A stretch of DNA of 64,000 bases, from positions 9,120,973-9,184,972 of the forward strand of contig OZ037770.1 of the NCBI GenBank assembly GCA_964035545.1, read 5' to 3'. The notes beneath the pieces are model-generated. The model did not search any database. It saw only the letters and a program-made list of their open reading frames with translations, and was not told the origin of the DNA. The translations under genes were made by a program, and so were the position numbers. The number at the start of each line of letters is the position of its first letter. Position 1 is the stretch's first letter. This DNA comes from Bugula neritina. Lineage: Eukaryota; Animalia; Bryozoa. This document shows positions 10,713 to 63,300 of this stretch, piece by piece.

Positions 10713-13700
10713 TTAGTTTAGCTGGTAAAACAGAACTTTCTTCTCACTGTATCTAGGTACAATCAGAGTGTCTTTATACACATGGAGATCAAACACAAAA
10801 CTCTTAGCTCTATCAGTTGGATCTTCTACTTTGGACAGTTGTGTACCTGTAACAGGAAATGATGTATCAGTGTGTCATCACTAGTACATAGCATAGTATA
10901 TTTTATAGTGTGAGACTGTGAGAAATACTAATATATTGATAACAGTAGTTAACTAACTAATGTAAAACTAACCTGTCTCCACATCCAGTATCCAGATGGT
11001 GGTTTTACTGCTGTAGTTAGTCACAAGAATATATTTACTTCTATAGCAGGTCACACCTTCTGGTTCAGATACATCCTTGCATGTCCAGATGACTTTCTCT
11101 GTTGTCAAGTCTAATTTAAATACTTGAGAGGAACCACAGTCAGAAACTACTACACAATGTCTGTCTGCTGCACATATTGCTATAGCACTATCACTGAGTA
11201 GAGGGCAGGAGACATGTTTAATTACCTTCCCAGTAAGAGAGTAGATTGTCAGTCTTTTACTGTGTCTATCAGGGACCACAACCTGGTCATCAACAATAGC
11301 AAGATTATTTGCACCACTACTATTATCATGGTGAGACCAGCTGGTCACCTGTTTCCCAGTAAGATCATACACATGTATTTTCCAATTAGCACTTAAGATG
11401 CCGATACGCTGTAGAGCATACAGCTTATCTCTATGTACTGTGACTCCAGTTACAAAGGAAGTAAGAGAAGTAAATGACTTTGAAACACTGAAACTCTCAT
11501 CTATTCTGCCTATCCCTGCACCACTCAGCCCTACATAAGTGTTACTCCCATATTTACAGACAGAATAACAGTAACTAGAAACATCAACAGACTGTACAAG
11601 TTTGAGAGATTTAGAAAGAGTAGAAGTTGTCACTCCTTGATCTAAACTAATAATCATGTCTGCTGCAGGAACCAGGTCTACTTCTATGTCTCTCTTCTCT
11701 TCTACAATATACATGTGAATATGTGTGTATGTGTGTATACTTATATATAAGTGAGTATGTATATATAATATGTATGTCATATAAAAGTGAGTATGTGTAT
11801 ATATTCTATTAATAGAAACTCTGAGTAAACCTACACACATGACTATTTCAACAAATATTCAAAATTTTCAACCAGTAGTTTCACACGTATGAAGGTCACT
11901 TTTCAGATAATATACTGAATAATAATGTTCTTATATTACATTATATAATGCAGATACATGATTATTATAAATTGCATGCAAGTGATTATCACAAATTTTA
12001 ACCAACACCAGTAATATAAAAGTGTGTCTACATTAGAACATCATAAGCAATCTAGAGTCTAGCACACTAACCTAACTAACAATATTACATTACATCACTA
12101 TAATAGAGACATTACCAAACTTAATGCTTCTAATAAAACCCACAACAGTAGTGAAAGTAATCTACAGTCCAGTATACTAACCTTTGACCTTTAGAGACAT
12201 GACATCACATAGCTCTAGTTTAGGTATCTCAACAGATATCAGTCTCTGTATTCTCTCTTTAATCTCTGCAAATCCTTCAACCAGATCCACCTGTAACATG
12301 TGACTACATATGAACAGTTGCTAAAGATCTACTTCATATCTGTCTTCTGCTTATAATATATATTACTGGGAGTACGTTTCGCTCATTTGTATAATAAATA
12401 ATTTGTATAACATGCGCTATACACTATTATAAAATGTATGAGGCAGGCTATTTTAATACACCATACACACCTGCACCATATAATAAGCATTATATAGCAA
12501 TAGGTGAAGACAACTCCACTCAAAAAGAAATTTAAGCCTTGTGTTTAATTGCAAAATTTACACAAGGAAATGTCAAAATTACCAGTTGCATTATACATGA
12601 AGCACAAATTTAAGGTGACAAACAGATACTAATATAAACTATAAATAGCACTTTATTTAAGTTTGCTTCAAGTCTGGTTTAAAACTCTACAACTTCACGT
12701 GAGATGACGAATTAGTATATTATCATGACATCATAACTATACAGCTATGACATCATAACTATACAGCTATGGTGTCATAGCTTTTAGATTGTTTACAGTG
12801 TACTGTTACTATACGGCTATAACAGAAGTCATCAACCAAAGCTGGTCTATAGAAAATGAATAAAAACAACAGCTTTTATCTATTATATTGTAGTTTTTAC
12901 TTTCTCTTTTGAGAAGGGCTAAAGCGTTTGGCTTAGTAAACACAAAGTCATGGGTTCAAACCCCAGTAAATACCATTGGTGATGTCAGGAAGAGTATCCA
13001 ATCAAAATTGCTCATATGTCACATATGAATACGTCTTTAGCTTTAAAAAACCCCTTCGTTCTGAGTTTCTTACAGGGATAGTGAGAATAAACTCATGTTT
13101 AAGAGAGCTATAATAAAAAATAAACTATGATCAGAGATAAACTACTAAAATAGCTATTCTCCGAAACCCATGAAAATACAATAGGAATATATTTATTAGA
13201 CAGACGATGAACACTGCTCACCTGATGGTTTTGTTTAAGTTGAGCTTCTATTTTCAATCTACTGTTACTCAGTTGAGACAAAACAGTTCCAACTTCTCTT
13301 TCCATGTATCTGTTCAGTTCCTCTTTAGTCTTCCTTCTACTAGCTAAAAATTCCTTCTCCAGTTTCTCATACTTAAGTCTCACTTCAGTCAACTACATCA
13401 TACATTGTATCAGCACATTGTAGAAAATGGACAATACATAAGAGAAAGTGTTTCAGAGTTGATTGTGAAAGAAAACAACATTGTAAAAAAAAAGTGTTTT
13501 AATTTACTCTGAATAGTAGCTAGTCACATAGCTGTTACTCTTAAGTATTAGTATTGCAATGTTTTACTAACACCTGACTACAGAATGTAGATTACAGAGT
13601 AACACAAAGTATTTTCTATAAACACACAACCTGTTCATCACGCTGTGTATGAAGAATATTCAGCAATTCCTCCGTCTCATTATCAAAGTCTGACACAGTT

Positions 13701-16025
13701 TTAGAAAGGTGTTTGAAGAAAGTAGACATCTTGTCTTCAGTGGTGAGAAGATCATCTATATTGATAAGCTCTTTGATTAGGTCATCTAGATTAACCATGT
13801 CATGTTTAGAGTCTAAAATGGAAATGAGAATATATGCAAATTAGTACACATTTTACTAACCTGATAGCACTACAGTTATATAACCTCACAGTAGTTAGAC
13901 AGTCAAGTTAGCCTAGTGCCACACTGTGCGTATTTTCGCATGCAAAAATTGAAACCACAAGTAGCCAAGGTGTCCACTGTAGCGTCAGTCATGCGTGATA
14001 AATAAAGCTTTCATTTTTAAATCACACTCGCTTTCAATAAAACGCAATTTACTGGAATGTAGCACTAATATAAAGAAATTGGGCTCGCTGAATAACTACC
14101 AGCCAATTAGGTGACGACGACAGAGACGATTCGCACTTGCGTTGAGAATGCTGAGCGACAAGTGCGAATGTTTTCTCAACACGTACAGTGGACACCTTTG
14201 CTACTTGTGATTTAAATTTTCGCATGCGAAAATACGCACAGTGTGGCCCTAAGCTAACCAGTACTACATAACCAAAGGGTAGTGAGAAACTGAAATATCA
14301 CCACATGCTATGACTACTAGATAAACAACATCTCCTGTCACTTTAAAAATCTTTTTAAAATTAGAAAACACACTTGAAATCTATTAACTAGTTAATTTAA
14401 GGCAAAACCCTTTTGTAAATTAGTATTAATAAAATCAGATTAAATGCCAAGTTACGACAAAAATTTCACAATAAACTCAAACGAGCAGTTATATTATGTA
14501 TCTGTAAAGGGGGTCGCGTAAGGGTTATGCAGTCAACATTTAAAACTATACTGATTACAGTAAAAACGCAATGAGTTACAGCAAAGAAAAGTTTCAGACA
14601 AGCTGTACAGGTTATGGGAAGATAGTACTTAAAGTAATAATAAGACATGTAGCTTCATAGCTCTTCTATTCAAACTCTAGTGTTTATCTATTTTTATCTA
14701 ATCCTAGATTTACTAAAGAAGCCATAAAAAGTTATGAAACTCACATGAGATATAGTCGCCAACCCGCCCCCCCCACCCTTGTGTGAACACCTGATAAAAA
14801 AGGTCATAGAATTCACATTACTCTATAGTCCCCATTATTGTGAGGCAACAAATGAAATATGTAGGTTACTCAAGTGTGAGAGCCCTTATAAACTAGATGC
14901 TTAAAGTAGGCGAAGTTTTGTTTTTGATTCCTGACATCATGACCCTTGACCTTATCTGGAATTCAAACTAATACCAGTGCTCTAACCACTATAGCTGTGC
15001 CCACACTGGAGAGGATATATTAATTATTAGATATACTAAGGTTTATCAAATAGTTTTCAGTGGAACTTTCTTACCTCCAACACACAAGTTGCCTGAAGAG
15101 ACACACTTCAAACAGAACAGCTGTACACAGACTTTACATCCGTGTATGTAGGGATATGCTGTGTGTTTGGGACAAACTTTTCTTTCCAGTCTCTTGGCTT
15201 GTATTCTGTAGTCAGTGATGGTCATCTTCTGGTGGTCATCACTGGTGTCATCATGTGACTGAATATAACAGAATATACATTTACTGAGAAATATAACTCA
15301 ACTATTCATATAGTGGAAAAGAAACAAAACTTAAAAACACATGATGTAAACATTTACAAATATTTATAGGAAAAGCACAACTCCCACCAACAACTAGTCT
15401 ATAAATAAATATATGTATAATCTGCATAAGACCAGATAAAACAGATAAAGGTGAAATATGAATTCCTAATGGCGTCTTACAAATCAACATTCAAGTATAC
15501 AATATGTAATCAGAGGCTGAGTTAGAGTATGCAGTGTTGAATATCAACTGAAGAAGTATTTAATGAAAGTATCACCTCATCATGTTTTCTGCAGAGGAGT
15601 TTACGGCACACAGTACAGTATATAACTGCTGGTACTTTTTTCAGTCCCTTTTTAGTGCACACGTCACATGATACGGAGTTGTCTACTACATCAGCAGATG
15701 GAAGATTCTCCACTCTCACATCGAACACTTCCCTGTGACACGACACAGAATTATTTAGTAGTAATTGAAACTATATATAACAGAATGCAATAAATTACAT
15801 AAAACAAATTATGTAAATCATGAACTCTTTACCAACAGTAGATCTAAGCTCTGCCTATACAAAACTAACTTACCTACACCAGGGACACCTAATCATGTCA
15901 TTCACATCAACATTACGAGTAAGACATAGTAAACAGTGTACATGACCACATGGTAGACACTTGGGATTCTCTAAACCTTCTTTCAGTAAACAGAATCCAC
16001 ACTCAACTTCTTCTGCTGCAGCCAT
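10713..16025 (-). CDS. TRIM (RING-Bbox-Bbox-coiled coil) protein with NHL-like beta-propeller, copy G1, ~605 aa
   Basis: Phase-consistent GT-AG exons 16025-15874 (RING C3HC4), 15732-15576 (B-box 1), 15258-15075 (B-box 2), 13812-13631, 13392-13222, 12290-12182 (coiled coil), 11701-10973, 10846-10713 (propeller repeats such as LAIVDDQVVVPD, VVVSD..SSQVFKLD); no stops seen. Confidence 0.9.
12915..13090 (+). mobile_element. Degenerate tRNA-derived SINE
   Basis: Box B-like GGTTCAAACC, core GTCAGGAAGAGTATCC; similar to 41109-41302. Confidence 0.55.
13911..14254. mobile_element. PIF/Harbinger (Tourist-like) MITE family B, copy 1
   Basis: ~33-bp TIR GCCTAG(T/G)GCCACACTGTGCGTATTTTCGCATGC; TTA/TAA flanks; empty site in the G4 intron near 55650. 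Confidence 0.85.
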
Positions 16026-17316: not shown

Positions 17317-18234
17317 TAATCACGCGTGCAGTAAATTCAAAATAATAACACTATTTATAAACGTTGCAGCGGCATTTACCCATCTGGTGGGCCTCATTCA
17401 GAGTTATCTTTCCAAACAAAACCTGGGAGCAACTAATACAATGTTCCGCTGTATCTAAATGACCCCTTTCTCACGAATTTCTATAGGTCACGAGAACAGC
17501 TTGGACCCCGTTTTGTGGCTGATGTATGTGTGTATAGGAACCAAATCACCAATTTCAACTGATCCGTGAGTTGAATCTGGCATTCTAATATGACAGGAGT
17601 TGACGTTTTAGACCTGTCGCCTAGTGAGTTACAGAGGGAGCCCTGTATATTGTTATGATTTTTAGATTTAGGGTCGATGTGCAACCAAGAGAGTCTATTT
17701 ATCACTAGAGAAACTTCACCGAGATAAGTCGAGTAGATATCGTTATATTTTAATACAAGAATACATAATAAAATCTAATATACAACAGTAAAAATACACA
17801 CGTCTATTTAATTTACAGCACTATCTTCAACTGAGCTAGTAGCGCGAAGCTGCTACTATTACTCATAAGCAGCTTAGCTAATTGGCTAGTATATCGTTCC
17901 GGGTCAATACCCAACCCTGCGTATTGTGCTGCTGGTAGCTCCACGAGCCACCACACTGCCCCCTCCAGCAGAAAGCCCTCTTTCTGATAAAAATATAATT
18001 CACATAAAAAAAACTTATACATCAGTGGGCAGAGAGAGAATGATACAAAAGTATATACAAGAGCCAACTGATTAGAGATACAGGTATATATAAAAAAAAT
18101 ATATGCACAATGAATGATACACGTATGTAAAAGAAAATCCTATTTACATGTAGAGTACGTGCCACCGAAACGGGGGGGGAATGCCACAGAGAGGTAGGGG
18201 GGAAAAGTGGTATGGAATTGGAGATGGACTCAGG

Positions 18235-19307
18235 TTAGTCGTGGGCCGCCCGCCTCATGCGTTTAATAGATTCCTGTAGATACTTGAGCTCACTGGATGC
18301 AGCATGCACGCGCGGTGCCAGTCTATACACTTCTTGCTCCAGGTCACGGGCCCTAGCTTCTACTTCACGTAAGTTGCGGGCCAGAGGGGATGAACGAGAG
18401 AAGGTCTGCTGTCTGTGTCGTTTCCGTTCTGAAGATGGAGGTGGGGGAGGGAGTGTATACGCATTTGTGTCTACCCTCTGTAGTACGACACGGGGAAGTG
18501 TTGCGGTTGACGTATAGGACTGGGAGGTGGGGAGTTAGTTGATTTTGTAGGCTTATCCATGGTTTCAGAGATGATGGGTCGAGGGGAGGGAAAGCCTTGC
18601 TCCAGGCGAGACAGCCGAGCTGAGTCAGTGATGAGGGGTCTGATGGCGTTAAGGAATGCGGGATATGATGCTTGGTCTACTTCATAGACGTGTCCTTGAA
18701 AACACTGCATAGTGCGTTGGTGACGCAGTAGATAATCACGATTGTAACTATATTCTCCGCAGGGGCAGAACGTTCTGATGTAATGCTGCGGCAAGTGGAC
18801 TCTCAGCCTACGATGGGTTGTAAACCGCTGCTGACATAGGCGGCATTCGCGGTTACTGTCACCTCCTCTATGAGTCTTAATCTCTTTCTCTGTGGCAGGG
18901 GTAATCCAGTTGGAGGTTGCTTCCAACTGGGGTGGCAGTTGTCCGGTTGTGGAAGTTGGTGGGGCCGGCTCTGGGTCCCATGCCATCTCTAGAGAAGGCA
19001 TGCCCGGAGAGACGGGCGCGAGTGTGTCTACAAAAGTAGAATTATTGTTAGATCGCGGTGGATCTTTACAACATAATTCTAGTGACGGTCGACTGTTACT
19101 AGCCTGAGAGTCACAACTTTTAGAATGCACTCGAAGAACCAGTGAATCATGTGTGGACTGACCAAGAACAGTGTCTAGCTCCAGGTCTAACAGACCGTCG
19201 GCCATTACAGTGTCTTCATCGTCCTTCACGTGAAACGTGGTTCCCAGTAATTCTGATTCAATCTGTTGAATTAGTTCAGAATTTACTGGCATCGAGCCCG
19301 TTTCCAT
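18235..19307 (-). pseudogene. E2 ORF3 (zinc-finger protein) with 1-nt frameshift near 18500
   Basis: ORF 19307-18471 holds both fingers; the shifted frame continues PRVVLQRVD...NLREVEARARDLEQEVYRLAPRVHAASSELKYL...AAHD to TAA 18235-18237. Confidence 0.85.
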
Positions 19308-19324
19308 GGATAGGAATACAAGAC

Positions 19325-22300
19325 TTATACTGGCTTACCTGTGAACTCGGTATTAATGTCCATACTCAACGTTCTTGGTAAGATTGGAGCTGGTTGTGAT
19401 ATACGTCTGCCTCTGGCGATGTCAGCATAGGAAAAGGCTGAGCATCGTTTCTGAGGCACGAGGTCGGAACTATTTGCTTTACGCGCATTAATTCCTCCCA
19501 CTATTCCGCCCTCGCAAAAGTTGATATTTGCGTGGGGTTCACAACTCCAACATTTTATCGTACGGTTTTCCCCTAGACTTTCATGCGTGCCGCTTCTAAT
19601 GCAGTCACATACGAAGTCTTTTAAATATGGTGAGGTTTCCTCGTACGCTGTCCCCGTTCTAGGGGGGGTGACACGCTCGCCGGTTCGTTAGTAGGGGCCT
19701 CTAATGGCGTCTCTACTTCACCGTTAGCGGTCACCTCTTCTTGTTCTCCGGATGGAGCCCCTCCCTCCGTGGGGGTTTGCACTTCCGGAACCGGCTCGGT
19801 TTCTGGAAGTGATGGAATTAGACTTGGCGGTGGCGGACACGCTTCCGTTGGCAAAAGCTGCCGCTCCTCTCTCACCAAGTTTTCTTCCCGCGGTATGACC
19901 ACTTCGTATTCAGGTCCATGCCGCCGTCGCCCGCGTGTTGTTGTCTGCCTCCTGGGCTCCAACAACGGGGGGGGGCTTCTCCCACCGCGTCGGGGCTAGC
20001 CCAATACGGTTTCAAGCGAGACTCATTCTGGATAGACACCTGTCCTGAGCGCTCAATCTTTTACGTATGATTGGGCATAGCCTCGACGATCACGTAGGGT
20101 CCTACGAACTTAGGCTTTAGTTTGTCAGCCTGTCCGCGACGCCTACGGTAATTGACCATCCACACCTTATCTCCCGTTTGGTAGAGAGGTGGTTCATCGG
20201 AATCTTCGTGCCGCACCTTCCACTGCTGTTCGCGCAGTATACCGTGTGCGGCCTTCATCCGTTCCACTAGTTCACTGGCATACTCGTGAACCGAGTTGTC
20301 TTGCTCTGGAACGTGGTAGGTAAGATGGTCAGGGACACGAGTCTCTCTCCCGAGCATCAAGAGGTTTGGGGTCTCACCAGTACTGGTGTGTGGGGTGCTA
20401 CGGTATGCACGCATGACTTGCGGCAACACCGTGTCCCATTCCTCTTGGCCTCGTCCGAGGAGGAGACTCCGGAGCGCATCACCTAGCATCCGGTTGTTGC
20501 GCTCCACCACCCCGTTACCTTGAGGGTGGTAGGGGGTGGTCCGGCTCTGATTTACTCCCCAGAGGTGGCAAAGGTCGCTCATCAGTTGAGACTGGAATTG
20601 AGCGCCTTGATCAGAGTGTATCTGTTCGGGGAGACCAAAATAACAGAATACATGTTGGTCTGGTGCCCTGGCCACTGTTGGGGCTGATGCATCTGGGATA
20701 GCCAGAGCATCTGCCCACCTAGTAAAGTGGTCGGTTAGTACTAAGATCCAACTATTGCCTCTGGGGGTCAGGGGCATGGGTCCGACCAGGTCTACAGCGA
20801 CTACTTGCCAGGGCTTTCCAGCATATAGCCTCCGCCGTCCTGCTTCACCAGGGGGGCGGCTATGCTTACTGGCCTGGCAGATCTCGCACTGTTTGACTCT
20901 GAGTCGGACATCACGCTCCATTTGTGGCCAATGCCACTGGAGTCGTAATTTGGATATCACTCTCTTGACCCCTGCGTGGGCCTGTTTGTGAGTATCCCAA
21001 ATCAACTCACGGCGGATGGCCGTGGGGCAGACTACCCTCTTCCTTTCCGGGTGTCTGCCGCTGGCGGCTAGAGAGATGGTTAGTAACCCATCCGGCCCGA
21101 TCCGCAGCGAGTCCCAACGCTGACAGTATAGCCGGAACTCGGCGCATCCCTGTCTTATGCGTTCCTCGCTGAATCGTCGCCCTTCTTTTTTGGCCCGATA
21201 TATGTCTGCCACTACTCCAGGTAGCTCTTCCTGGAGCTTTTTCAGCTCTCGGACATTATCGGCCAGTACAGGGTTGGCGCGGAGGTTTTGTACAACCTCC
21301 GGGGACTCGTCAACCTCCTGTCTGAGTTGACCCTGGTCCCAGTCAAACGGTGCTCCATGGCGAGCCAGCGTCTCTAACTCACATCGCGGGGGACCTCCAT
21401 CCCTCCTCTCGATGTTGAGACACTGTTTGCAACCTCCATCAGGTCGGCGGCTCAACCCGTCCGCATTGCTGTGCCTCCTGCCCGGTCGATGTTCGATCCG
21501 GTATGAGAATTCAGCTAGGATTTCGAGCCACCGGGCGACTTGACTGGAGGGCTCTGCTCTCTTGCACAACCAGATCAGCGAGGCAGCCGGAACTTCCTGC
21601 CGTATAAGTATGGTCTGAAGTGCTTCACTGACTTGATTACTGCCAGCAGCTCCTTGCAGGTAGTGCAGTAATTTCGTTCAGCGGGTGAGAGAGACTTGCT
21701 GTAGTAGGCTACTACTACCTCTCGGCCTTCCTGCACTTGAGACAACACAGCGCCAACATTTTGGTCACTGGCGTCCGTGTCGAGGATGTACTCTAGAGTG
21801 GGGTCTGGGTAGGCCAAGAAGGGCGCCGTTAGTAGGCAGCCCTTGAGGCGGTCGAACGCTCCTTGTTCGACTGGGGTCCACTGCCACGTCACTCCCTTTG
21901 CGGTGAGCCGGTTTAACTGCTGGGCTATGCCCGCAAAGTCTGGTATGTATTGCCTGTAATACCCTACCAGCCCCAAGAAAGCCCGGAGTCCGGTCAAGTC
22001 TTGGAGGGTGACCCAGTCTTCTATCGCCCGTACCTTTTCGGGATCCGTTGCCACGCCGTTTCGACCGACAACGTGCCCCAGGTACTTGACCTCCGGCTGC
22101 AATAGAGCGCACTTGGAAGGTTTGAGCTTAAGACCGGCACCTCAGGGTCTCTCGAAAACCTCCTGCAGACGACTGATATGTGTCTCGAAGTCTGGGGAGA
22201 TCACGATGACATCATCGAGGTAGACCAGCAGTGTCTTCCAATGGAGCCCGCTAAGGACTTGTTCCATCAGCCTCTGGAAGGTGGCTGGGGCGGAGGTTAA

Positions 22301-24098
22301 CCCGAAGGGCAGCACCTTCCACTTCCACAACCCGTCCCGTGTGATAAACGCCGCTTTCTCCTGGGCGTCGGGACTCAGAGGGACTTGCCAATAGCCACTC
22401 AGCAAGTCTAATGTACTGAAGTACTTGCTGCCGGCTAGGGCGTCCAAGGACTCGTCAATACGAGGTAGATGGTAGGCGTCCTGTATGGTTACGTTTTTGA
22501 GTTTACAATAATCCACACAGAACCGCCAACTGCCGTCTTTCTTCCGGACCAGTACGACCGGTGAGCTCCACGCACTATGGGCGGGCTCTATCAGTCCCCG
22601 GTCCAGAAGATCCCGTACTTGTCGGCTAACCTCCTTCTCTTTCTCCGGCCCCAGCCTGCGTGTGGGTTGCCGGACAGGGACTGTCCCTGCAGTCAGCGGT
22701 ATTTCGTGTCTGACAACTCCAGTCAGCCCCACGTCATGATCTCCGCTGCTGAACACATCACCGTAGTCGCGTAGCAATTTCGCCATCGCTTGGCGTTCCT
22801 TGTTACTCGTGCAGCCACCACAGGCTGTTTCATACAACTCCCGGAGATGTGTTGGAACTGCCCCTTGCCCCTGAGTAGGGTGTCGAGGGGGTGTCTCCGT
22901 CGCGTCACCCAGCGACGGGCCAACGTCCTCTTCCTGAACGGAGTGGAACCGGCCCAGCATTGACCCAACTGGGAGCTCAATGGGCTCGGTAAGCGGGTTG
23001 ACACACTGCACTAAGACCTCCCCTCGCTCAGTTAGTCGGTTTAAACTACTAGCGAGTTGGATCTTTTCGTGCGCGCCTTCAACGACCCCGAGCCTGGCCA
23101 TCCGGTTGCTGTTCACTCGGCAGTGGATAGTAGCCCTGGAGCGTCCGGGCACGGTGCAGTTTCGAACTACCTGAACACCGCCCACCAGAAGACGCCCAAA
23201 CTTATCCACACAGGCGAGTTCTCGCCCGCCCATCAGCACCACCGACTTGCTGAAGTCTATTCGGCACTGGTGTTGCTTCAAGAAGGGCATTCCGAGGATA
23301 GCATCTTCCTCCAGTTGGCTTATGACAAAAGTCTCCTGTACAGCCTGGTCTCGGACACGCCCTGGGAGCTCGATAATACCGTAGAAGGGAATACATGACC
23401 CGTCTGCTAGGGTGTCATGTTCCCCTGTATACGGTCGTACTCTATCCCTGTCCCGGCGGGGCAGTGCCTCAAAGACTCTACGACTGAGAAGGTTGGTAGT
23501 ACAACCGGAGTCGAGCAGGAAAGTGACGGCGTTGCCGGCCACCTTTCCGGGTAGGAAATAGCTCTCTCCATGTGGTTGTACTTTCACTCCCCCCCCGCAT
23601 GTGCTGTCCTAGATTGGTAGGACGGCGGGGGTTTCACCCGTGGTTTACGGGGTTTCCGGCGGCGAGGTTGGTGCCGGCGGGGTTTGGGGCTTTCCACTGG
23701 GCCTTCCGGCTCCATTTCAGTGGCGGGCTCCTCTTCCCGAGGTAACCGGTGGAACCGGTTGGCGAGTGGCAGGGAGAAGGTACTTGGCCGTTGTACGGTC
23801 CTGCTAGTCCTGCGTGGTACCTGCCACTCGGGGGTAGTGTTCCGTCGTGTCCGTACGGAGGGACGACGGCGTGTCCCACCAGACTCCTTCAGTTGCGGCC
23901 CGCGGGGAGGGAGAGCGTCCGCGGGCCGTGACAGTTTAACGCCCCCTGGTATTGGGGTCGTCCTTTCTGTCCCTGGTCTTGACCGACACTACTCCAGCCC
24001 TGCCCCACAGGTGTTGGGGGCACCCGCAGGGCCTGACCGGGGCCAGCACCGGCCAGAATGGTTACCAGTTGTCCCAGCATCTCTACCATACGGTCCAC
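19325..24098 (-). pseudogene. E2 gag (3' part)-pol, disrupted
   Basis: PR-RT ORF 23587-22142 ends at CGA>TGA; 13-nt deletion near 21580; TAC>TAA at 20061; further indels in the IN tail. Confidence 0.9.
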
Positions 24099-24750
24099 TT
24101 ATATATGTTCCTTGAATGGTGACTCTTCTGTTATACTGTTTATAAGTGTGAACCACTTTTTAAACTTTAAAGCATTCTATAGATTAATTATTCCATAATT
24201 ATTGAGGGGAGTAATATTAAATAGAATATGGATGGATATATGGAAATGGGTGTGAAATTTAGTCATTCAATATATATGCATATAAGCTATAAGCTTGTGG
24301 TCAAACTAGTGTAGATGTAGTATTATATTGTGATCTGGCTTCTAGATATGCAGTTTAAAGGCCAACAGACTACGCTGTGTATGTTACCATGCCACTTTAT
24401 CTTCATAAGTATACTCATTTTTTCAACCTTGGAACACAAATATTTTTGTGACGAAAAGAGTATTGATCTATTATAACTTCCTGCATTCAAATAAAGTTCA
24501 ACTCTTTAAAATACAAATGAAACAGAGAACAGAAAACAATATAGCAGAAAGTGCATCAGCACTAAGATGTGCTGTCAGAAAGACCATGAGTTCAAATACA
24601 GGGTGTTGTCTCCCCCACAGAGGATGTCTGAGTTATTTATATCCAGCATCATTATAAAGTCCTGTTAGTTGTATTTAGTGACATACCAGTCTGAATTCTT
24701 ATCACAATGTGATTATTCGGTTTACAGGAAACAGTTGTGTATACTTGGTA

Positions 24751-26393: not shown

Positions 26394-28030
26394 ATACTCA
26401 AACATGAAAAATGCTCAGCTAATGCACTCAATGACCCCAAACTTTCTGTTGCATAAATCCATTTCCGAACTAGGATGCCCTGGTGTGTAACTTTTCAAAA
26501 ACTTTCTGTAATATACACTCAACAATTACATGGCTTTGTGTTGTTGCACAGGAACGTACAATTTTAAGCAAATCTTTAGCCCACAAACAGAGGCAACTTA
26601 TTTCGTATAATAGTTATATTATATAACCCTTTAGCCTGCATATAAAGGCAATTAAGAACAGAGCCAAATAGAGGCAATTTATTTTTCATAATATTTACAG
26701 AAAATAAAGATCAATTTCAAACATACAATCTAGCAGGAAATATGGAACTAGTTCATGTGTAGAGACAAATAAAGTGATAAATCATGTTTTGTGGTTATCT
26801 GTCAAAATACATAACTTTATAACAGCTCACTGTGTAAACTATCAGTATATATAACTATATTATGTAAAATATTAGCTTGTCACACAAAAGCAGTAAATTG
26901 AGATTAGCATCAACAATATAGTAAAATGAATGTTGCAGTAATGGTTGATATTTGATGGTAAATTATAGTAAACATTGTGATGTACTAGAATATCGGTATG
27001 TAGTAAATGTAGACTTAGAGTTACCATATAATCACATTGATCTCTATACGACCTTCAATATAAATCAGGTTAGATATATAAAAAGTTACAGGCTAATACC
27101 TTAAAGTCATGCAGGTTGTGAAATAGGGTTGGTACAAGTGAAAATAAATTGGCGCTTGGAATTATTTAAGTTTAGGTGTAAATGTTAGTTACTGTGACGT
27201 CATACGTCTTTCCACCCCATGCATAGCTGAATAAGTGAGTTACTGGGACGTCACACAGCCTGCCACACTGTATCATAGCTCCATGTTGAAGAACTCAGTC
27301 TACAGAGTCAACTTTGAGAATCATCTAGAAATAACAGACACAGTGTATATGTAGAAGTTGTACATCTTAGACATATCACCACAAATATGTACATTAGTAG
27401 AAAACACAGAGTTGAGCACCAGATGTATTCAAACAGAGTCTAGTGTGATAAACAATATAATAAATGTACCACAAGATGGAATAATATCCTGTCACACACC
27501 TGTTTAGTTTAGCTGGTAAAACAGAACTTTCTTCTCATCCCATCTAGGTACAATCAGAGTGTCTTTATACACATGAAGATCACACACACTACTCACAGTT
27601 CTATCAGTTGGATCTTCTACTTTGGACAGTTGTGTACCTGTAACAGGAAATTATGTATTAGTGTGTCATCACTAGTACATAGCATAGTATATTGTGGTGG
27701 CTCGTGGAGCTACCAGCAACACAATACGCGAGGTTGCGTATTGACCCGGAACAATGTATTAGCCAATTAGCTAAGCTGTTTGATAAGTAATAGTAGCCGC
27801 TTCGCGCTACTAGCTCAGTTGAGGATAGTGCTGTAAAATTAAATAGACGTGCGTATCATTACTGTTGTACATTGGAGTTTATTATGTATTCTTGTATTAA
27901 ATATAACGATATCTACTCGACTTAACCGGTGAAGTTTCTCTAGTGATAAATAGACTCTCTTGGTGGCACATCAACCCTAAATCTGAAAACTATAACAGTG
28001 GTGGCAGCGGTGGGATAGTGTATATCAAAG

Positions 28031-28897
28031 ATGGAGACTGAAAATGCTAGAATGCAACCACCCCCAGTAGAAGGTGAGCGTAGAAATGCTGTTAATCCTG
28101 TGAATCGTGAAGGAGAAGAAGCTTATAGACATTGCTTGAAAGCTCCCACCTTTACTGGGTCGGAAGATGTCGAACAATTTATACAAGAATTCAGAGAAGT
28201 AATGGAAGTTGCTCAATGGCCGCATAGAGTAGCCCTCATTCAATTGCGGAGAGCGGTGACGGAGCAAGCCAAGCCGTACGGAGTGGGAACGGACGTAGAC
28301 GGCATACTGGCTGCGCTGCGGGCCCGTTTTGGCACCTCCGTCATAGACGCTAGGACCAAGCTGGAGAGATTGTGCCGCACCCCGCGGACCTCGCTGCAAG
28401 AACATGCCGCGACGGTGAAGAAGCTGGCGCAGATTGCATATAGCGACCTGCCAGCACAACACCAAGAGCGTTACACCTATGACGCCTTTGACCAGTCCCT
28501 AAACGACCTGGGCCTAGACCATCACCTACGAGCTAAAGGGATAACCAGAATAGAGGATGCCCTGAAGGCTGGAGAAGCTTACCTGTTGGCTACCCAAATG
28601 CATCGAGCACAAAGGAACCCACCAGTAGTTGGAGTCAGCGCTGCCAGGGCTACGACAGGCTCCGAAGCCCTCCCGCTGGAAGCCGAAGTGGACCGTATGG
28701 TAGAGATGCTGGGACAACTGGTAACCATTCTGGCCGGTGCTGGCCCCGGTCAGGCCTTGCGGATGCCCCCAACACCTGTGGGGCAGGGCTGGAGTAGCGC
28801 TGATCAGGACCAGGGACAGAAAGGACGACCCCAATACCAGGAGGCGTTAAACTGTCACGGCCCGCGGACACTCTCCCTCCCCGCGGGCCGCAACTAA
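28031..28897 (+). CDS. gag: E3 Gag (288 aa, no recognisable CCHC knuckle)
   Basis: Starts just after the PBS; PTFTGSEDVEQFIQEF capsid-like motif homologous to E1 gag. Confidence 0.85.
   Translation: METENARMQPPPVEGERRNAVNPVNREGEEAYRHCLKAPTFTGSEDVEQFIQEFREVMEVAQWPHRVALIQLRRAVTEQAKPYGVGTDVDGILAALRARFGTSVIDARTKLERLCRTPRTSLQEHAATVKKLAQIAYSDLPAQHQERYTYDAFDQSLNDLGLDHHLRAKGITRIEDALKAGEAYLLATQMHRAQRNPPVVGVSAARATTGSEALPLEAEVDRMVEMLGQLVTILAGAGPGQALRMPPTPVGQGWSSADQDQGQKGRPQYQEALNCHGPRTLSLPAGRN
28846..28890 (+). other. Candidate -1 programmed ribosomal frameshift signal
   Basis: G_TTA_AAC in gag phase, 5-nt spacer, 10-bp stem CGGCCCGCGG/CCGCGGGCCG; the -1 frame is open into PR; same signal in E2 near 23896-23941. 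Confidence 0.75.
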
Positions 28898-31800: not shown

Positions 31801-33472
31801 GGATACTCACAAGCAGGCCCACGCAGGGGTCAAGCGAGTGATATCCAAATTACGACTCTGGTGGTATTGGCCGCAGACGGAGCGTGACGTCCGGCTCAGA
31901 GTCAAACAGTGTGAGATCTGCCAGGCCAGTAAGCATAGCCGCCCCCCTGGTGAAGCAGGACGGCGGAGGCTATATGCTGGTAGGCCCTGGCAAGTAGTCG
32001 CTGTAGACATGGTCGGACCCATGCCCCTGACCCCCAGAGGCAATAATTGGATCCTAGTACTAACCGACCACTTTACTAGGTGGGCGGATGCTCTGGCTAT
32101 CCCAGATGCATCAGCCCCAACAGTGGCCAGGGCACTAGACCAACATGTATTCTGTTATTTTGGGCTTCCCGAACAGATACACTCTGATCAAGGCGCTCAA
32201 TTCCAGTCTCAACTGATGAGCGACCTTTGCCACCTCTGGGGAGTAAATCAGAGCAGGACCACCCCCTACCACCCTCAAGGTAACGGGGTGGTGGAGCGCA
32301 ACAACCGGATGCTAGGTGATGCGCTCCGGAGTCTCCTCCTTGGACGAGGTCAAGAGGAATGGGATACGGTGTTGCCGCAAGTCATGCGTGCATACCGTAG
32401 CACCCCACACACCAGTACTGGTGAGACCCCAAACCTCTTGATGCTCGGGAGAGAGACTCGTGTCCCTGACCATCTCACCTATCACGTTCCAGAGCAGGAT
32501 AACTCAGTCCATGAGTACGCCAGTGAACTAGTGGAACGGATGAAGGCCGCACACGAGATACTGCGTCAACAGCAGTGGAAGGTGCGGCACGAAGATTCCG
32601 ATGAACCACCCCTCTATCAAAGAGGAGATAAGGTGTGGATGGTCAATTACCGTAGGCGCCGCGGACAGGCTGATAAGCTGAAGCCTAAGTTCGTAGGCCC
32701 CTACGTGGTCGTCGAGGCTATGCCCAATCATACGTACAAGATTGAGCGCTCAGGACAGGTGTCTATCCAGAATGAGTCTCGCTTGAAACCGTATTGGGCT
32801 AGCCCTGACGGAGTGGGAGAAGCCCCCCCGTTGTTAGAGCCCAGGAGGCAGACAACGACGCGCGGGCGACGGCGGCATGGACCTGAATACGAAGTGGTCA
32901 TACCGCGGGAGGAAAACTTGGTGAGAGAGGAGCGGCAGCTTTTGTCAACAGAAGCGTGTCCGCCACCGCCAAGTCTAATTCCATCACTTCCAGAAACCGA
33001 GCCGGTTCCGGAAGTGCAAACCCCCACGGAGGGAGGGGCTCCATCCGGAGAACAAGAAGAGGTGACCATTAACGGTGAAGTAGAGACGCCATTAGAGGCC
33101 CCTACTAACGAGCCGGCAAGCGTGTCACCCCCCCTAGAAAGGGGACAGCGTACGAGGAAGCCCCCACCGTATTTGAAAGACTTCATATGTGACTGCATTA
33201 GAAGCGGCGCACATGAAAGTCTAGGGGAAAACCGTACGATGAAATGTTGGAGTTGTGAACCCCACGCAAATATCAACTTTTGCGAGGGCGGAATAGTGGG
33301 AGGAATTAATGCGCGTAAAGCAAATAGTTCCGACCTCGTGCCTCAGAAACGATGCTCAGCCTTTTCTTATGCTGACATCGCCAAAGGCAGACGTATCTCA
33401 CAACCAGCTCCAACCTTACCAAGAACGTTGAGTATGGACATTCATACCGAGTTCCCAGGTAAGCCAGTATAA
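28846..33472 (+). pseudogene. pol: E3 pol (PR-RT-RH-IN) with a frameshift/stop in RT near 30460
   Basis: ORFs 29071-30534 and 30470-33472; GLWKWK is coded as ggtttgttggtagtggaag (extra T plus TAG); catalytic motifs otherwise intact. Confidence 0.9.
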
Positions 33473-33489
33473 GTCTTGTATTCCTATTC

Positions 33490-36540: not shown

Positions 36541-36559
36541 AATATCTAGTTGCTTTACA

Positions 36560-45500: not shown

Positions 45501-47182
45501 TACTCTTAAGTATTAATATTGCAATGTTTTACTAACACCTGACTACAGAATGTAGATTACAGAGTAACACAAAGTATTTCCTATAAACACACAACCTGTT
45601 CATCACGCTGTGTATGAAGAATATTCAGCAATTCCTCCGTCTCATTATCAAAGTCTGACACAGTTTTAGAAAGGTGTTTGAAGAAAGCAGACATCCTGTC
45701 TTCAGTGGTGAGAAGATCATCTATATTGATAAGCTCATTGATTAAGTGATCTAGATTAACCATGTGGTGTGGTGAGTCTAAAATAGAAATGAAAAACCAC
45801 ATTCAACAAGACTATTGCAAAACCATGACAAAAGTTGAAAAAAACAAACTTCAAACAGGCTGTACAAGCGGAAGGCATTTGAATATAAAAACAATTCACT
45901 CTCATTTGATAAAACACTTTTAACTACAAAATGCACAAACTTCACATTCAGCTGCTTCGAGTTATAACTGTTTCACTATTGACCCTTTTCCAACATTCCT
46001 GCTACTCAATTTATAATTTACAGTTGTTTTCTCCTAGTAGAGATCAATGTATAAAACACAAAGCTGGCTATAAATTTCTAATGTTGCTATTCACGAGCAG
46101 CCCTCACAGTGTATTGGGTAGCAGATTGACTTTAGTTGGAGGACTGCAGTTTGATTCCAGGGTCAGCATTCTTATAAGATTTACTGAGGTGGCTCTACAG
46201 TTTATCAGATTTACTGAAATTTAGCAAATAACAAAAGTCTTCTTACCTCCAACACACAAGTTAGTGCAAGATGTGCACTGCACACAGAACAGCTGAACAC
46301 AGACTTTACACCCTTGTATGTAGGGATATGCTGTGTGTTTGGGACAAACTCTTTTCTCTAGTCTCTTGGCTTGTATTCTGTAGTCAGAGATGGCCATCTT
46401 CTGGTGGTCATCATTGGTGTCATCATGTGACTAAATATAACAGAATACATCTTTACTGAGAAATATAACTACACTGCGCATATAGTGGCAAAGAAACCAA
46501 AATTAAAAATACATGATCTAAACATGTAAAAATATGTATAGTAAAGTAACAATTTTCATCAGCACATAAATGTATAATCTGCATAAAAACAGATAAAAAT
46601 GAAACATGATTTTTTAATGTTTTAATACAAATCAACATTCAAGAATACAATATGTAATCAGAGGCTGAGTTAGAGTATGCAGTGTTGAACATCAACTGAA
46701 GAAGTATTTAATGAAAGTATCACCTCATCATGTTTTCTGCAGAAGAGTTTACGGCACACAGTACAGTATATAACTGCTGGTACTTTTTTCAGCCCCTTTT
46801 TAGTGCAGACGTCACATGATACGGAGTTGTCTACTACATCAGCAGATGGAAGATTCTCCACTCTCACATCAAACACTTGATCCCTGTAACAAGACACATA
46901 ATTATTTAATAATAATTGAAACAATATATAACTGAATACAAAAAAATTGTATGACATAAAACATATCATGTAAATCATTAACTCTTTACCAACAGTATGT
47001 CTCAGCTCTGTCTATACAAAACTAACTTACCTACACCAGGGACACCTGATCATGTCATTCACATCAACATTACGAGTAAGACACAGTAAACAGTGTACAT
47101 GACCACATGGTAGACACTTGGGATTCTCTAAACCTTCTTTTAGTAAACAGAATCCACACTCAACTTCTTCTGCTGCAGCCAT
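42513..47182 (-). CDS. TRIM-NHL-like protein copy G3, ~596 aa
   Basis: Exons 47182-47031, 46883-46724, 46430-46247, 45777-45596, 45375-45205, 44795-44687, 43471-42773, 42646-42513; phases match G1. Confidence 0.9.
43736..44513. mobile_element. MITE family A, copy 2 (in a G3 intron)
   Basis: Perfect TIRs CACCGGCTTTCCATGTACCGATCTCAG; ATT TSD; homologous to 556-1308. Confidence 0.9.
44572..44727. repeat. 51-bp tandem repeat (3 copies) duplicating an exon 3' end and splice donor
   Basis: Donors at 44686, 44635, 44584; two copies in G4 (54414, 54363); one in G1 and G5. Confidence 0.85.
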
Positions 47183-48480: not shown

Positions 48481-48489
48481 GGGAATTCC
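48481..48489. promoter_or_regulatory. kB-like site upstream of G3
   Basis: GGGAATTCC at the position paralogous to 17306. Confidence 0.35.
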
Positions 48490-60355: not shown

Positions 60356-63300
60356 TTAGTTTAGCTGGTAAAACAGAACTTTCTTCTCATCCCATCTAGG
60401 TACAATCAGAGTGTCTTTATACACATGAAGATCCCAAACAATACTCACAGCTCTATCAGTTGGATCTTCTACTTTGGACAGTTGTGTACCTGTAACAGGA
60501 AATGGTGTATTAGTGTGTCATCACTAATACATAGCATAGTAACTTTATAGTGTGAGACTGTGAGAAATACTAATATATTGGTAACAGTAGTTAACTAACC
60601 AATGTAAAACTAACCTGTCTCCACATCCAGTATCCAGATGGTAGTTTTACTGCTGCAGTTAGTCACAAGAATATATTTACTTCTATTGCAGGTCACACCT
60701 AGTGGTTCAGATACATCCTTGCATGTCCAGATGACTTTCTCTGTTGTCATGTCTAATTTAAATACTTGAGAGGAATCATAGTCAGAAACTACTACACAAT
60801 GTCTGTCTGCTGCACATATTGCGGTATAACTATTACTGAGCTGAGGGCAGGAGACATGTTTAATTACCTTCCCAGTAAGAGAGTAGATTGTCAGTCTTTT
60901 ACTGTGTCTATCAGGAACTATAACCTGATCATCAACAATGGCAAGTTTGTTTACACCATCACTATTATCATGGTGAGACCAGCTGGTCACCTGTTTCCCA
61001 GTAAGATCATACACATGTACTTCCCAATTAGTGCTGCTGATATGCTGTAGAACATAAAGCTTATTCCTATGTACTCTGACTCCATTTACATTGTTAGTAG
61101 TAGAAGTAAATGACTTGGAAACACTGAAACTCTCATCTATTCTGTCTATCCCTGCACCACCATAAAGCCCTACCTAAGTGTTACTCTCATATTTACAGAC
61201 AGACAAACAGTAATCAGAAAAATCAACAGACTGCAAGAGTTTGAGAGATATAGGAAGAGTAGAAGTTGTCACTCCTTGTTCAAACTTGAAAATCATGTCT
61301 GCTGCAGGAACCAAGTCTATTTCTACATCTCTCTTCTCTTCTACAATATATATGTGAATATGTGTGTATGTGTGTATACTTATATATAAGTGAGTATGTA
61401 TATTTAATATGTATGTCATATAAAAGTGAGTATGTGTATATATTCTATTAACAGAAACTCTGAGTAAACCTACACACAGGGCTATTTCAACAGATATTCA
61501 ATTTTCCAACCAGTAGTTTCACACACATAATGAGCACTATCAGATAATATACTGATCAATATTGAGGTTCATATAGTACATTATATAATGCATATAAACG
61601 ATTATTACAAGTTTTTATTAATATCAGTAATATAATTAATGCGGGTATGCACTAGATCAGCCATGCTTAACCTGCGGCCTTTTGACTTTTGGCGGCCTTT
61701 TGAGCTGGTGAATGTGGCCTTTTGGTTTTTTAGTAAAAATAGAAATTTAGCTCAGTTTCAATCCTTCCAGAATTTTGTTTTCACTGATTCCCAAGTTTAC
61801 TATATGAATCATGACTGCTAGCACATATTGAAGTAAACATTTATTCTCTTTAATGGGGTCTGCCAAAAGCAAATTCAGATTAAGGCCAACAGATATCCTT
61901 CACATACCAGCATCGGACATTAATCCATACTGTGTTCTGTTCAATGTACAAGAAATACTCATATTCCTGAACAATTCAAGTTATTCCCCTGGATCTTTTT
62001 TTCATAAAATGAATATGATTTTATGTAAAAATAGCACTGGTGAAAGTGGCATGGTAAAAATAGCACAGCTAATAATGGAACAAATAGAAAGTAGGTAAAA
62101 TGGCAAACTGATGGTAAATCTTCCCAAACCCCCCACCCAAACCCAGGCGCCTAAACCTCAACCCCCAACCTAACCCTCAACCTTAATATTGAAAATGTGT
62201 CATTTTTACCTACTTAGACACTTGTGCCATTATTACCTGTGCCAATATTACCTGTGCCACTTTTACCTGTGTCACTTTTACCGGACACCAATAAATACAC
62301 ATAAGATTTGAAAATAGGCTTTAATTATTAATATATGGAGGATTTTGACAGTGAAAATGACACTGAACTTTCTAGTGGCCTTTTTGGTGGCTCAGGGTTA
62401 TTTTACGGCCTTTTCCCAAACAAAGGTTGAGCACTAGATTCTAGAACAATAGTGCAAGTAATCTATAGTCTAGTTTATCTACCTTTGACCTTTAGAGACA
62501 TGACATCACACAGCTCTAGTTCAGGTATTTCAACAGATATCAGTCTCTGTATTTTATCTTTAATCTCTGCAAATCCTTCAACCAGATCCACCTACAGTAT
62601 ATAAGCATAGCATTAGTCAGTGGGACTAAAAAGACGGTCTTTTTAGTTACAACTTCCTACTGTTTTTCTGCATTAGTTCACTTAAAGTTACGAATGGTAA
62701 AAAAGCGTGGTGTGCCTGGCATGAGCATATTGCAGCAAACTACCTATTCAAAAACGCTATGGCCAGTATCCTATTTAGAATTAAAAAAACTTTGTTTTAG
62801 GCCGACACAACTTTACAACAATTCTTTTAAATACAATTTTGTAACACATTGGAGTTTGCAAGCACACAACTATAGAGCTAATACAGAAATGAATAATCAG
62901 GCATTGTGATTGTCAATCTAAGTATTTCATCAGTTTTTTTTAACTTAAAGATTTACAAAAACATAATCTAAATATATTTAGTAGACAGATGGTGAAAACT
63001 GCTCACCTGGTGGTTTTGTCTAAGTTGAGCTTCTATCTTCATTCTACTGTTACTCAGTTGAGACAAAACAGTTCCAACTTCTCTCTCCATGTATCTGTTC
63101 AGTTCCTCGTTAATCTTCTTTCTAGTAGCTAAGAATTCCTTCTCCAGTTTCTCATACTTTAGTCTCACTTCAGTCAACTACATCATACATTGTATCAGCG
63201 AATTGTAGAGAGTGGACAACATAATGGAGAAAGTGTTTCAGAGTTGATTGTAGAATTTTGATAACATATCAACTCAGAATAGTAGCTAGTCACCTAACTG

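What the first reader, a model, noticed from the sequence alone, without database searches (positions are those of the whole stretch)
10713..61340. TRIM array with hypervariable beta-propeller loops: candidate diversified immune receptor family
Seen: RING, B-box, coiled-coil exons, flanking intron ends and ~230 nt of 3' UTR are nearly identical, but the propeller varies at recurring positions: SSYCYS/SSLCYS/SNFCWS/SDYCLS; QRIGILSANW/QCITNNNW/ECISSIMGANW/QHISSTNW (indels); NSSGANN/NSWGVNK/DSGGANN/NSDGVNK; SDCG/SDRG/SDYD; EPEG/KPQG/KSEG/QPQG/EPLG; TNY/TNR/TKR/TNC; VFD/VCD/VRD/VWD; RYSE/RWDE/RYWG. Known: NHL propellers bind ligand on one face, and TRIM5 and fish finTRIM arrays diversify their C-terminal recognition loops. 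Inference: a ligand-binding face under diversifying selection on a constant E3-ligase scaffold, possibly restricting viruses or retroelements.
Basis: partly seen in the sequence, partly recalled or inferred. Interest (0 to 1): 0.72.

Follow-up and report, generated by a model that had tools for sequence, protein, structure and literature searches.

The report
Fast-diversifying TRIM propeller receptor array
This stretch, likely from a bryozoan (a colonial marine animal), holds five side-by-side copies of a predicted ubiquitin-ligase gene, three of them intact, whose predicted binding face changes several times faster than silent DNA, so they likely form a varied set of sensors for foreign molecules inside the cell.

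Summary
Real, with corrections. Five minus-strand copies of an 8-exon gene (RING, two B-boxes, coiled coil, six-bladed NHL-type propeller). A, C and D are open (596-605 aa). E has an in-frame stop. B is a fragment split by LTR retrotransposons. All 15 named relative clusters are from the bryozoan Watersipora. In 21 independent close paralogs, 20 of 21 hypervariable sites lie on the propeller's top face (20/90 against 1/76, p=3e-5). At such independently defined codons the intact copies show omega 3.8-5.1 (p<=5e-5, also with multi-nucleotide changes allowed); the N-terminal part shows about 0.4. Against: free site models (p=7e-6) lose significance for the three intact copies once multi-nucleotide changes are allowed, and the whole top face has omega only 1.3-1.7. 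B-box 2 is as variable as the propeller. The conserved '3' UTR' is mostly an intron. The copies are mosaics, and family members are spliced in RNA. Best reading: a finTRIM/TRIM5-like repertoire of intracellular non-self receptors built on an NHL propeller. Ligand, induction and E3 activity are untested. The scan noted a similar family in sea urchin DNA before (e1-7810530, unchecked).

The parts
10713..16025 (-). Copy A, intact TRIM-propeller gene, 8 coding exons (16025-15874, 15732-15576, 15258-15075, 13812-13631, 13392-13222, 12290-12182, 11701-10973, 10846-10713), 605 aa
   Evidence: GT/AG ends, open frame; exon 7-8 joint seen in family contigs of runs X6 and X13
10973..11701 (-). Copy A exon 7: linker, closing strand and blades 1-5 of the propeller; holds all 21 hypervariable sites scored
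   Evidence: AF2 model pLDDT 91.9; best fold matches are TRIM-NHL domains, Z 20.8-21.3; entropy
10534..10708 (-). Intron in the 3' UTR, 4 nt behind the stop; almost invariant in all five copies (1-4 of 175 differences)
   Evidence: no Rfam match; fold z +0.77
27504..35246 (-). Copy B, pseudogene fragment: exon 7 3' part (35246-34972) and exon 8 (27637-27504); exons 1-6 and the 5' part of exon 7 are absent
27693..34896 (+). LTR retrotransposon (Gypsy-like by domain order) inserted in intron 7 of copy B; LTRs 99.3% alike, 4-base target-site duplication
35244..37855 (-). Shorter LTR element remnant (226-bp direct repeats, 97% alike; gag and integrase zinc-binding matches) at the deletion edge of copy B; no target-site duplication seen
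42513..47182 (-). Copy C, intact, 8 coding exons (47182-47031, 46883-46724, 46430-46247, 45777-45596, 45375-45205, 44795-44687, 43471-42773, 42646-42513), 596 aa
52974..57543 (-). Copy D, intact, 8 coding exons (57543-57392, 57250-57094, 56654-56471, 55554-55373, 55106-54936, 54523-54415, 53947-53234, 53107-52974), 600 aa
60356..63578 (-). Copy E, exons 4-8 (63578-63397, 63177-63007, 62591-62483, 61340-60615, 60489-60356); in-frame stop at 61174-61176 in place of a conserved Tyr; exons 1-3 not in the window; likely pseudogene or null allele (a sequencing error is not excluded)
17651..24107 (-). LTR retrotransposon copy (93% alike to the one in copy B, reading frames interrupted) in the spacer between B and A
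15..493 (.). Homolog of the upstream region of copy D (58098-58591, 88%): a sixth copy likely lies just left of the window (inferred)

Best explanation
The window is part of a large tandem family of TRIM genes, likely bryozoan, in which about 20 codons on the predicted top face of a six-bladed NHL-type propeller change faster than neutral DNA, so each copy likely binds a different foreign target inside the cell and likely marks it with ubiquitin through its constant RING. SHOWN: the architecture, three open copies and two broken ones, clustering of variable sites on one face (by strand topology of a confident model), omega well above 1 at independently defined sites, mosaic ancestry of the copies, and spliced transcripts of family members. 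INFERRED: (i) duplication and loss (birth-and-death) supply the copies; (ii) gene conversion or unequal crossing-over homogenises the framework and some introns and shuffles variable patches, while selection keeps the face diverse; (iii) the Tyr/Asn/Trp-rich face of varying charge binds variable, probably protein, ligands; (iv) as recalled for TRIM5 and TRIM21, the coiled coil dimerises two propellers, clustering on a repetitive target activates the RING, and the target is degraded or signalled; (v) the driver is a pathogen or parasite.
For: Face: 20 of 90 top-face sites against 1 of 76 bottom-face sites are hypervariable in 21 independent paralogs (p=2.6e-5). Among A, C and D, 36 of 90 against 7 of 76 vary (p=5.6e-6). 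Top loops exceed bottom loops in both subclades (p=2e-4 and 7e-6). 'Top' is defined as in Brat (b-c and d-a loops), where it binds the ligand (PMC4015489, passages). Selection: fixed-site model, 17 codons defined on the 21 closest or on the 17 more distant outside sequences, omega 5.1 and 4.9 (p=6e-8, 1e-7), and 4.4 and 3.8 with multi-nucleotide changes (p=6e-6, 5e-5); N-terminal part 0.37-0.44. pN at those codons is 0.31-0.38, against 0.15-0.18 for the most diverged non-coding exon (p=0.06, 0.0015, 0.019). M1a/M2a LRT 23.7 in the propeller against 3.1 in the N-terminal part. Recurrent change: 10-28 parsimony steps per hypervariable site over 42 sequences; face means 8.3 (top) against 2.7 (bottom). 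Composition: Tyr 15.2% against 0.9% in other loops, Trp 2.7% against 0; net charge -4 to +5. Family: 438 representatives at 50% clustering; 38 close exon-7 sequences at 63-83%; 429-1000 contigs laid per run. Mosaic: 25 of 41 neighbouring informative sites share a split, p=4e-4. RING C3HC4 spacing intact and 96-100% identical. Parallels: finTRIM (PMC2657112, passages), fungal HNWD propellers (PMC12222747, passages).
Against: No functional data: ligand, induction, tissue and E3 activity were not tested. With multi-nucleotide changes allowed, the free site-model test is not significant for the three intact copies (LRT 0.5 and 2.5) and weak with copy E added (7.8, p=0.02). The whole a-priori top face has omega 1.68 (p=0.008), or 1.31 (p=0.22) with multi-nucleotide changes. 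Conversion may lower dS and so inflate omega. One of three conservative comparisons is only p=0.06. Only three intact coding sequences were available; DNA of the 38 paralogs could not be fetched. The face assignment comes from DSSP strand order, not from coordinates, and two strand ends plus blade 6 were set by hand. The top face is on average slightly positive (+2.2, range -3 to +8), so RNA is not excluded as ligand. The codon models are my own implementation, not PAML. No run holds more than 0.36 of copy A's words, so expression of these exact copies is not shown.
Confidence: 0.6

Rival explanations
1. The propellers are sequence-specific RNA binders, like Brat and LIN-41, and the array is a repertoire that recognises changing viral or transposon RNAs and represses or degrades them.
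For: Nearest folds are RNA-binding NHL domains (Mei-P26, Brat, TRIM71). Their ligand face is the same top face. Aromatic residues can stack on bases. Mean top charge is +2.2 against -3.3 at the bottom. R464, next to the b-c loop of blade 3, is nearly invariant. TRIM56's NHL-like domain is linked to suppression of influenza RNA synthesis (PMC9634614, passage). LTR elements with 99% identical LTRs lie in the window.
Against: Top-face charge ranges from -3 to +8, and copy D is -1, whereas RNA-binding NHLs are predicted to keep a positive top. 8-14 different residues at the most variable sites, with Tyr/Asn/Trp enrichment, looks more like protein recognition (inference).
Confidence: 0.17
2. The repertoire serves allorecognition between colonies, or an intragenomic conflict (selfish element or poison-antidote), rather than pathogen defence.
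For: Bryozoans are colonial, and allo-incompatibility is cited for them (PMC8195603, passage). Fungal HNWD propellers, with the same pattern of concerted evolution plus a few selected codons, recognise allelic variants of a host protein. No run holds more than 36% of copy A's words, which may mean high polymorphism.
Against: There is no signal peptide or membrane helix in the gene models (read by eye), so there would be no surface recognition. Diversity seen here is between paralogs, and relatives lie on 7 different Watersipora chromosome-scale records, not at one locus. No linkage data.
Confidence: 0.11
3. No positive selection: surface loops are merely unconstrained, and gene conversion has lowered silent divergence, so omega is inflated.
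For: Free site models lose significance with multi-nucleotide changes. Copies are mosaic. One intron is homogenised to 1-2%. Two of five copies are dead.
Against: Bottom loops are equally exposed but conserved (0.37 against 1.05 bits). Conversion cannot tell neutral replacement sites from silent ones. pN at the focal codons is about twice that of the most diverged non-coding region. Omega 3.8-4.4 survives the multi-nucleotide model. Adjacent differences in introns are only modestly in excess (47 against 33.7 expected).
Confidence: 0.08
4. The copies are substrate receptors or translational regulators for different host (developmental) targets that diverged after duplication.
For: Known TRIM-NHL proteins regulate development and mRNA fate (listing).
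Against: Recurrent change at the same codons (10-28 steps), short star-like branches, pseudogenes and lineage-restricted expansion fit an arms race, not stable subfunctionalisation.
Confidence: 0.04

Closest known systems
TRIM-NHL proteins (class VII / subfamily C: TRIM2, TRIM3, TRIM32, TRIM71/LIN-41, TRIM56; Brat, Mei-P26, Thin, NHL-2)
   Same: RING, two B-boxes, coiled coil and a six-bladed propeller. The family profile's best PDB sequence hits are TRIM3, Brat, Thin and TRIM2 NHL domains (E 2e-11 to 4e-10). The six best fold matches of the full-length relative are all TRIM-NHL domains (Z 26.5-29.6, rmsd 2.1-3.1, 237-254 aligned).
   Different: Those are few per genome (three in flies, four in C. 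elegans) and conserved between species (88% human/zebrafish TRIM71). Here there are dozens of lineage-restricted copies with a hypervariable top face. Identity to solved NHL domains is only 10-15%. Pfam NHL matches only 10 of 115 members at E<=0.01. No filamin-length domain lies between coil and propeller.
finTRIM of teleost fish and primate TRIM5alpha
   Same: Clustered expansion, near-identical RING/B-box region, recombination, and positive selection on the ligand-binding loops of the C-terminal domain (PMC2657112, passages).
   Different: Their recognition domain is B30.2/PRY-SPRY, here an NHL-type propeller. finTRIMs are shown to be virus- and poly(I:C)-induced and TRIM5 to restrict retroviruses; neither is tested here. 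It works like them; it is not a member.
Podospora HNWD NLRs (het-d, het-e)
   Same: Beta-propeller sensor with a framework kept alike by concerted evolution and a few codons under diversifying selection on the interaction face (PMC12222747, passages).
   Different: There the WD40 repeats within one gene are homogenised, and the effector is a NACHT/HET cell-death module. Here whole paralogs are homogenised, the blades within a gene are unlike each other, and the effector is a RING.
Mollusc B-box/NHL 'hypothetical protein' clusters, and the sea urchin B-box/Death-propeller family noted by this scan
   Same: ESM Atlas neighbours at 0.92-0.93 are mostly mollusc clusters with partial NHL matches, and clusters at 0.87-0.88 carry B-boxes.
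   Different: Leads only.

Membership tests
TRIM (RBCC) family | N-terminal C3HC4 RING | tested here: met
   C9, C12, C26, H28, C31, C34, C47, C50; Pfam RING families E 2e-4 to 6e-3, below the curated cut-offs
TRIM (RBCC) family | One or two B-boxes after the RING | tested here: met
   Two Cys/His clusters at 73-112 and 132-168; ANCHR-like B-box E 0.0012 in copy C; zf-B_box E 0.001-0.008 in 4 of 8 full-length relatives; all below cut-off
TRIM (RBCC) family | Long coiled-coil hairpin | tested here: met
   Helices 181-237, 240-292 and 295-314 in the model of relative P0151, which aligns with copy A over its full length at 37%; the window protein's own coil was not folded
TRIM (RBCC) family | E3 ubiquitin-ligase activity | not testable with these tools
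   Needs an in vitro assay; RING ligands are intact and an Arg follows the last Cys (the 'linchpin' role is recalled, not from a call)
TRIM-NHL (class VII) | C-terminal six-bladed NHL-type propeller | tested here: met
   Six blades in the P0151 model; five in the exon-7 model; top fold and profile hits are NHL domains of TRIM-NHL proteins
TRIM-NHL (class VII) | Pfam NHL repeat above the curated cut-off | tested here: not met
   Best window score 10.9 bits against a cut-off of 20; 10 of 115 members at E<=0.01; so NHL-like and divergent
TRIM-NHL (class VII) | Positively charged, RNA-binding top surface | tested here: inconclusive
   Residue count only, blades 1-5: net -3 to +8, mean +2.2 over 42 sequences; no electrostatics or binding data
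TRIM-NHL (class VII) | Orthology to TRIM2/3, TRIM32, TRIM56 or TRIM71 | not tested
   No tree with these proteins was built; database names ('TRIM2-like', 'TIF1-beta-like') are automatic
finTRIM / TRIM5-type restriction factors | C-terminal B30.2 (PRY-SPRY) domain | tested here: not met
   The C-terminal domain is a confidently modelled beta-propeller; no SPRY match in Pfam
finTRIM / TRIM5-type restriction factors | Clustered expansion with positive selection on the ligand-binding loops | tested here: met
   caveat
finTRIM / TRIM5-type restriction factors | Induction by virus or dsRNA, or restriction of a virus | not testable with these tools
   Only contigs were available, which cannot give expression levels

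The most novel reading that the evidence does not exclude
Bryozoans, and perhaps molluscs and echinoderms, carry a large germline repertoire of cytosolic 'antibody-like' TRIM E3 ligases. They use an NHL propeller instead of PRY-SPRY as the variable recognition head, and gene conversion shuffles about 25 paratope-like codons on a homogenised framework. This would be an invertebrate counterpart of the TRIM5/finTRIM system, built from a class known as conserved developmental RNA regulators.
Probability: 0.35. Interest if true: 0.82.

Novelty: new variant of a known kind. Interest (0 to 1): 0.6.

Why it matters
TRIM-NHL proteins are known as a handful of conserved RNA regulators, while diversified antiviral TRIMs are known from vertebrates and use a SPRY head. 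A large, positively selected NHL-headed repertoire in a bryozoan would show that the same arms-race design arose on a different recognition fold in invertebrates. It would also give named candidate specificity codons for intracellular non-self recognition in a phylum where my searches found no such work. The family is nearly invisible to annotation, because no domain passes a Pfam cut-off. The variable face could serve as a natural binder scaffold joined to an E3 ligase.

Tried and rejected
No whole genome is held, so copy number in this genome was not counted. The search for longer homologs of exon 7 found none among 1708 candidates (weak evidence). A full-length search with P0151 found only its own cluster. 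A metagenome scan for paralog DNA gave 2 loci from 90 pattern matches, at 29% identity over 55 residues; they were judged unrelated and not used. The conserved 3'-UTR intron as a structured RNA: no Rfam match at gathering level (best E 0.063), and 160 of 200 shuffles fold as well; rejected as unsupported. Free site-model estimates of omega about 40-50 were rejected as inflated, since they vanish under a multi-nucleotide model. The idea that the N-terminal half is younger or converted as a block was rejected, since dS there is as high as in the propeller. Summed contig depth as a copy number was not used (tool caveat). Retrotransposons in the array as targets: no evidence. An Atlas search of the full-length relative did not complete. 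No complex was predicted, since no partner is known. Ten full-text searches listed no paper on an expanded or positively selected TRIM-NHL family in bryozoans. Passages checked in PMC3503706, PMC7783167, PMC8195603 and PMC12373286 do not describe it; PMC7783167 mentions one fast-evolving coral NHL gene. The library lacks most subscription papers, and no supplements were read; gene-family tables in genome papers may list the expansion.


Full report
GENE MODELS. A six-frame scan and self-comparison show repeated minus-strand units about 10 kb apart, interrupted by GC-rich LTR retrotransposons. Copy A has 8 coding exons with GT/AG ends and gives an open 605-aa protein. Its exons find four more units. 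C (596 aa) and D (600 aa) are open. E has exons 4-8 in the window and an in-frame stop at 61174-61176, where the outside sequences nearly all keep Tyr. B keeps only the end of exon 7 and exon 8; an LTR element with a 4-base target-site duplication sits in its intron 7, and a second element marks the edge of a deletion. Window bases 15-493 match the upstream region of D, so the array likely continues to the left.

WHAT THE PROTEIN IS. Cys/His spacing gives a C3HC4 RING and two B-boxes. Pfam matches are all below cut-off. AlphaFold2 of exon 7 with 115 aligned sequences gives five four-stranded blades (pLDDT 91.9). The full-length relative P0151 gives RING/B-box, a long helical hairpin and six blades (pLDDT 88.5). 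The four best VIA matches of the exon-7 model are Mei-P26, Brat, TRIM2 and TRIM71 NHL domains (Z 20.8-21.3, rmsd 2.1-2.8, 200-208 aligned), tied with a nidogen YWTD propeller (Z 20.6). For the whole propeller the six best are all TRIM-NHL domains (Z 26.5-29.6). Foldseek lists Thin and TRIM3 NHL at ranks 2 and 4 among many generic propellers. The family profile hits TRIM3, Brat and Thin first in the PDB sequences.

FAMILY AND LINEAGE. A profile of exon 7 finds 438 representatives at 50% clustering (324 at E<=1e-10). I looked up 20 of the 150 listed. 15 of the 20 clusters carry a name, all Watersipora subatra, on 7 different chromosome-scale records; the near-full-length ones are 29-37% identical to copy A. 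The window is therefore likely from another bryozoan (inference). A near-length search gave 76 hits. I used the 38 with 63-83% identity and at least 91% coverage, and dropped the other 38 (more distant or partial). They may come from several individuals or species. Four public runs each gave 429-1000 contigs on 1.3 kb of copy A, mostly under 99% alike. The exon 7-8 joint stands in X6 and X13, and loose ends match the neighbouring exon in X6, X9 and X13, so family members are transcribed and spliced. No run holds more than 0.36 of copy A's words, so these exact copies are not shown to be expressed.

WHERE THE VARIATION LIES. In the 21 closest outside sequences, 21 of 211 propeller sites have entropy of 1.8 bits or more, while 117 have under 0.3. 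The profile agrees with that of the 17 more distant sequences (rho 0.55) and with the sites variable among A, C and D (p=1.7e-10). Faces were assigned from DSSP strand order, with top = b-c and d-a loops and adjoining strand thirds, following the definition for Brat (PMC4015489, passages). No coordinates were available, and two strand limits and blade 6 were set by hand. 20 of 90 top sites against 1 of 76 bottom sites are hypervariable, and none of 35 middle sites. Top loops average 1.05 bits, bottom loops 0.37. In exon 8, the replacements at 576-580 and 594-596 also fall on top loops. Hypervariable sites need 10-28 changes on a tree built from the other sites, are rich in Tyr (15.2% against 0.9%), Asn and Trp, and range in net charge from -4 to +5.

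SELECTION. Pairwise omega is 0.25-0.34 for RING plus B-boxes and 0.74-1.5 for the propeller, at similar dS. pN is 0.13-0.17 on the top face and 0.03-0.05 in the rest of the propeller. My own GY94 site models on A, C and D give M1a/M2a and M7/M8 LRTs of 23.7 (p=7e-6) in the propeller and 3.1-3.7 (not significant) in the N-terminal half. With indel loops masked the LRT is 17.5. With double and triple changes allowed it falls to 0.5-2.5 for the three intact copies and 7.8 (p=0.02) with E. This result goes against a simple reading. The non-circular test fixes the focal codons from outside sequences (17 codons after masking) and shares the silent rate across the gene. It gives omega 5.1 and 4.9 for the two definitions, and 4.4 and 3.8 with multi-nucleotide changes (p from 6e-8 to 5e-5); the a-priori top face as a whole gives 1.68 (p=0.008) and 1.31 (p=0.22). 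Against the most diverged non-coding exon as yardstick, pN at the focal codons is about twice as high (p=0.06, 0.0015, 0.019 for the three non-independent pairs). I conclude that a small set of top-face codons is under diversifying selection, with omega near 4-5, not 50.

RECOMBINATION AND CORRECTIONS. Informative sites among A, C, D and E fall in blocks of conflicting splits (25 of 41 neighbours agree, p=4e-4; clustered mutations can add to this). D and B share their 3' end (4 of 174 differences in the UTR exon, against 22 of 275 in exon 7). B-box 2 is 81-90% identical, like the propeller, but its silent divergence is raised too (pS 0.15-0.29, pN 0.05-0.11), so it looks older rather than selected. 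The conserved 3' block is a 175-nt intron with 1-4 differences between copies, against 8.9% in introns 1-7 (binomial p<=4e-4). A 160-nt contig with one difference stands at depth 1720 in X1. Recent conversion or an unknown function: unresolved.

MECHANISM. Best reading (0.6): a birth-and-death repertoire of cytosolic receptors. The variable top face binds foreign, probably protein, targets; the coil dimerises; the constant RING ubiquitinates on clustering. The last two steps are recalled from TRIM5/TRIM21 biology and come from no call. Rivals: an RNA-binding repertoire (0.17), allorecognition or genetic conflict (0.11), relaxed constraint with conversion (0.08), host-target subfunctionalisation (0.04).

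COMPARISON AND NOVELTY. By architecture and fold it is a divergent TRIM-NHL-like protein; orthology to the named members was not tested. It evolves like finTRIM/TRIM5 (PMC2657112, passages) but lacks their SPRY domain. It shares the 'homogenised propeller with a few selected codons' pattern of fungal HNWD receptors (PMC12222747, passages). Known human TRIM-NHL members and TRIM56's antiviral link are from PMC9634614 (passages). Marin's survey (PMC3503706, passages) notes only in general that tandem TRIM expansions may answer external aggression. Ten searches listed no description of this family; the other papers were seen only as listings with abstract starts. The scan's own notes hold nothing by sequence or for bryozoans, but one similar sea urchin family. 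ESM Atlas neighbours are mostly mollusc NHL clusters. Verdict: real; new variant of a known kind; interest 0.6.

Noticed in passing
window 1631-9233 (-), 17651-24107 (-), 27693-34896 (+): Three related LTR retrotransposons (75-93% alike). Two have LTRs 98.9-99.3% alike and the same 4-base AT-rich target-site duplication, so they are recent insertions. Their long frames are interrupted. Each carries an extra ORF behind pol (2273-3385, 18474-19334, 33463-34389) with a weak C2H2 zinc-finger match (E 0.017 for the last) and no env-like Pfam match.
   Followed up: partly
window 10534-10708 and its homologs in B, C, D and E: The 3'-UTR intron is 5-10 times more conserved than other introns or the adjoining UTR exon, with no Rfam match or stable fold; unexplained.
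   Followed up: partly
exon 3 of A, C and D (15075-15258, 46247-46430, 56471-56654): B-box 2 is as variable as the propeller at protein level (81-90%), with raised silent divergence; three codons (142, 156, 159) got posteriors 0.85-0.88 in a non-significant test.
   Followed up: partly
window 556-1290 against 43736-44469; 13910-14257 against 25964-26310: Insertions shared between unrelated places (one in intron 6 of copy C, one with long inverted ends in intron 3 of copy A): likely small non-autonomous transposons.
   Followed up: no
exon 7, copy-A residues about 340-347: A 7-residue linker segment is present in A and E and absent in C, D and 2 of 38 outside sequences, a split that conflicts with neighbouring sites and fits conversion.
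   Followed up: no
run X1 contigs laid on intron 7: Some family members in X1 have a different, longer intron 7 (258 other letters) at the same position, so distant paralogs share the exon structure but not the intron sequence.
   Followed up: no
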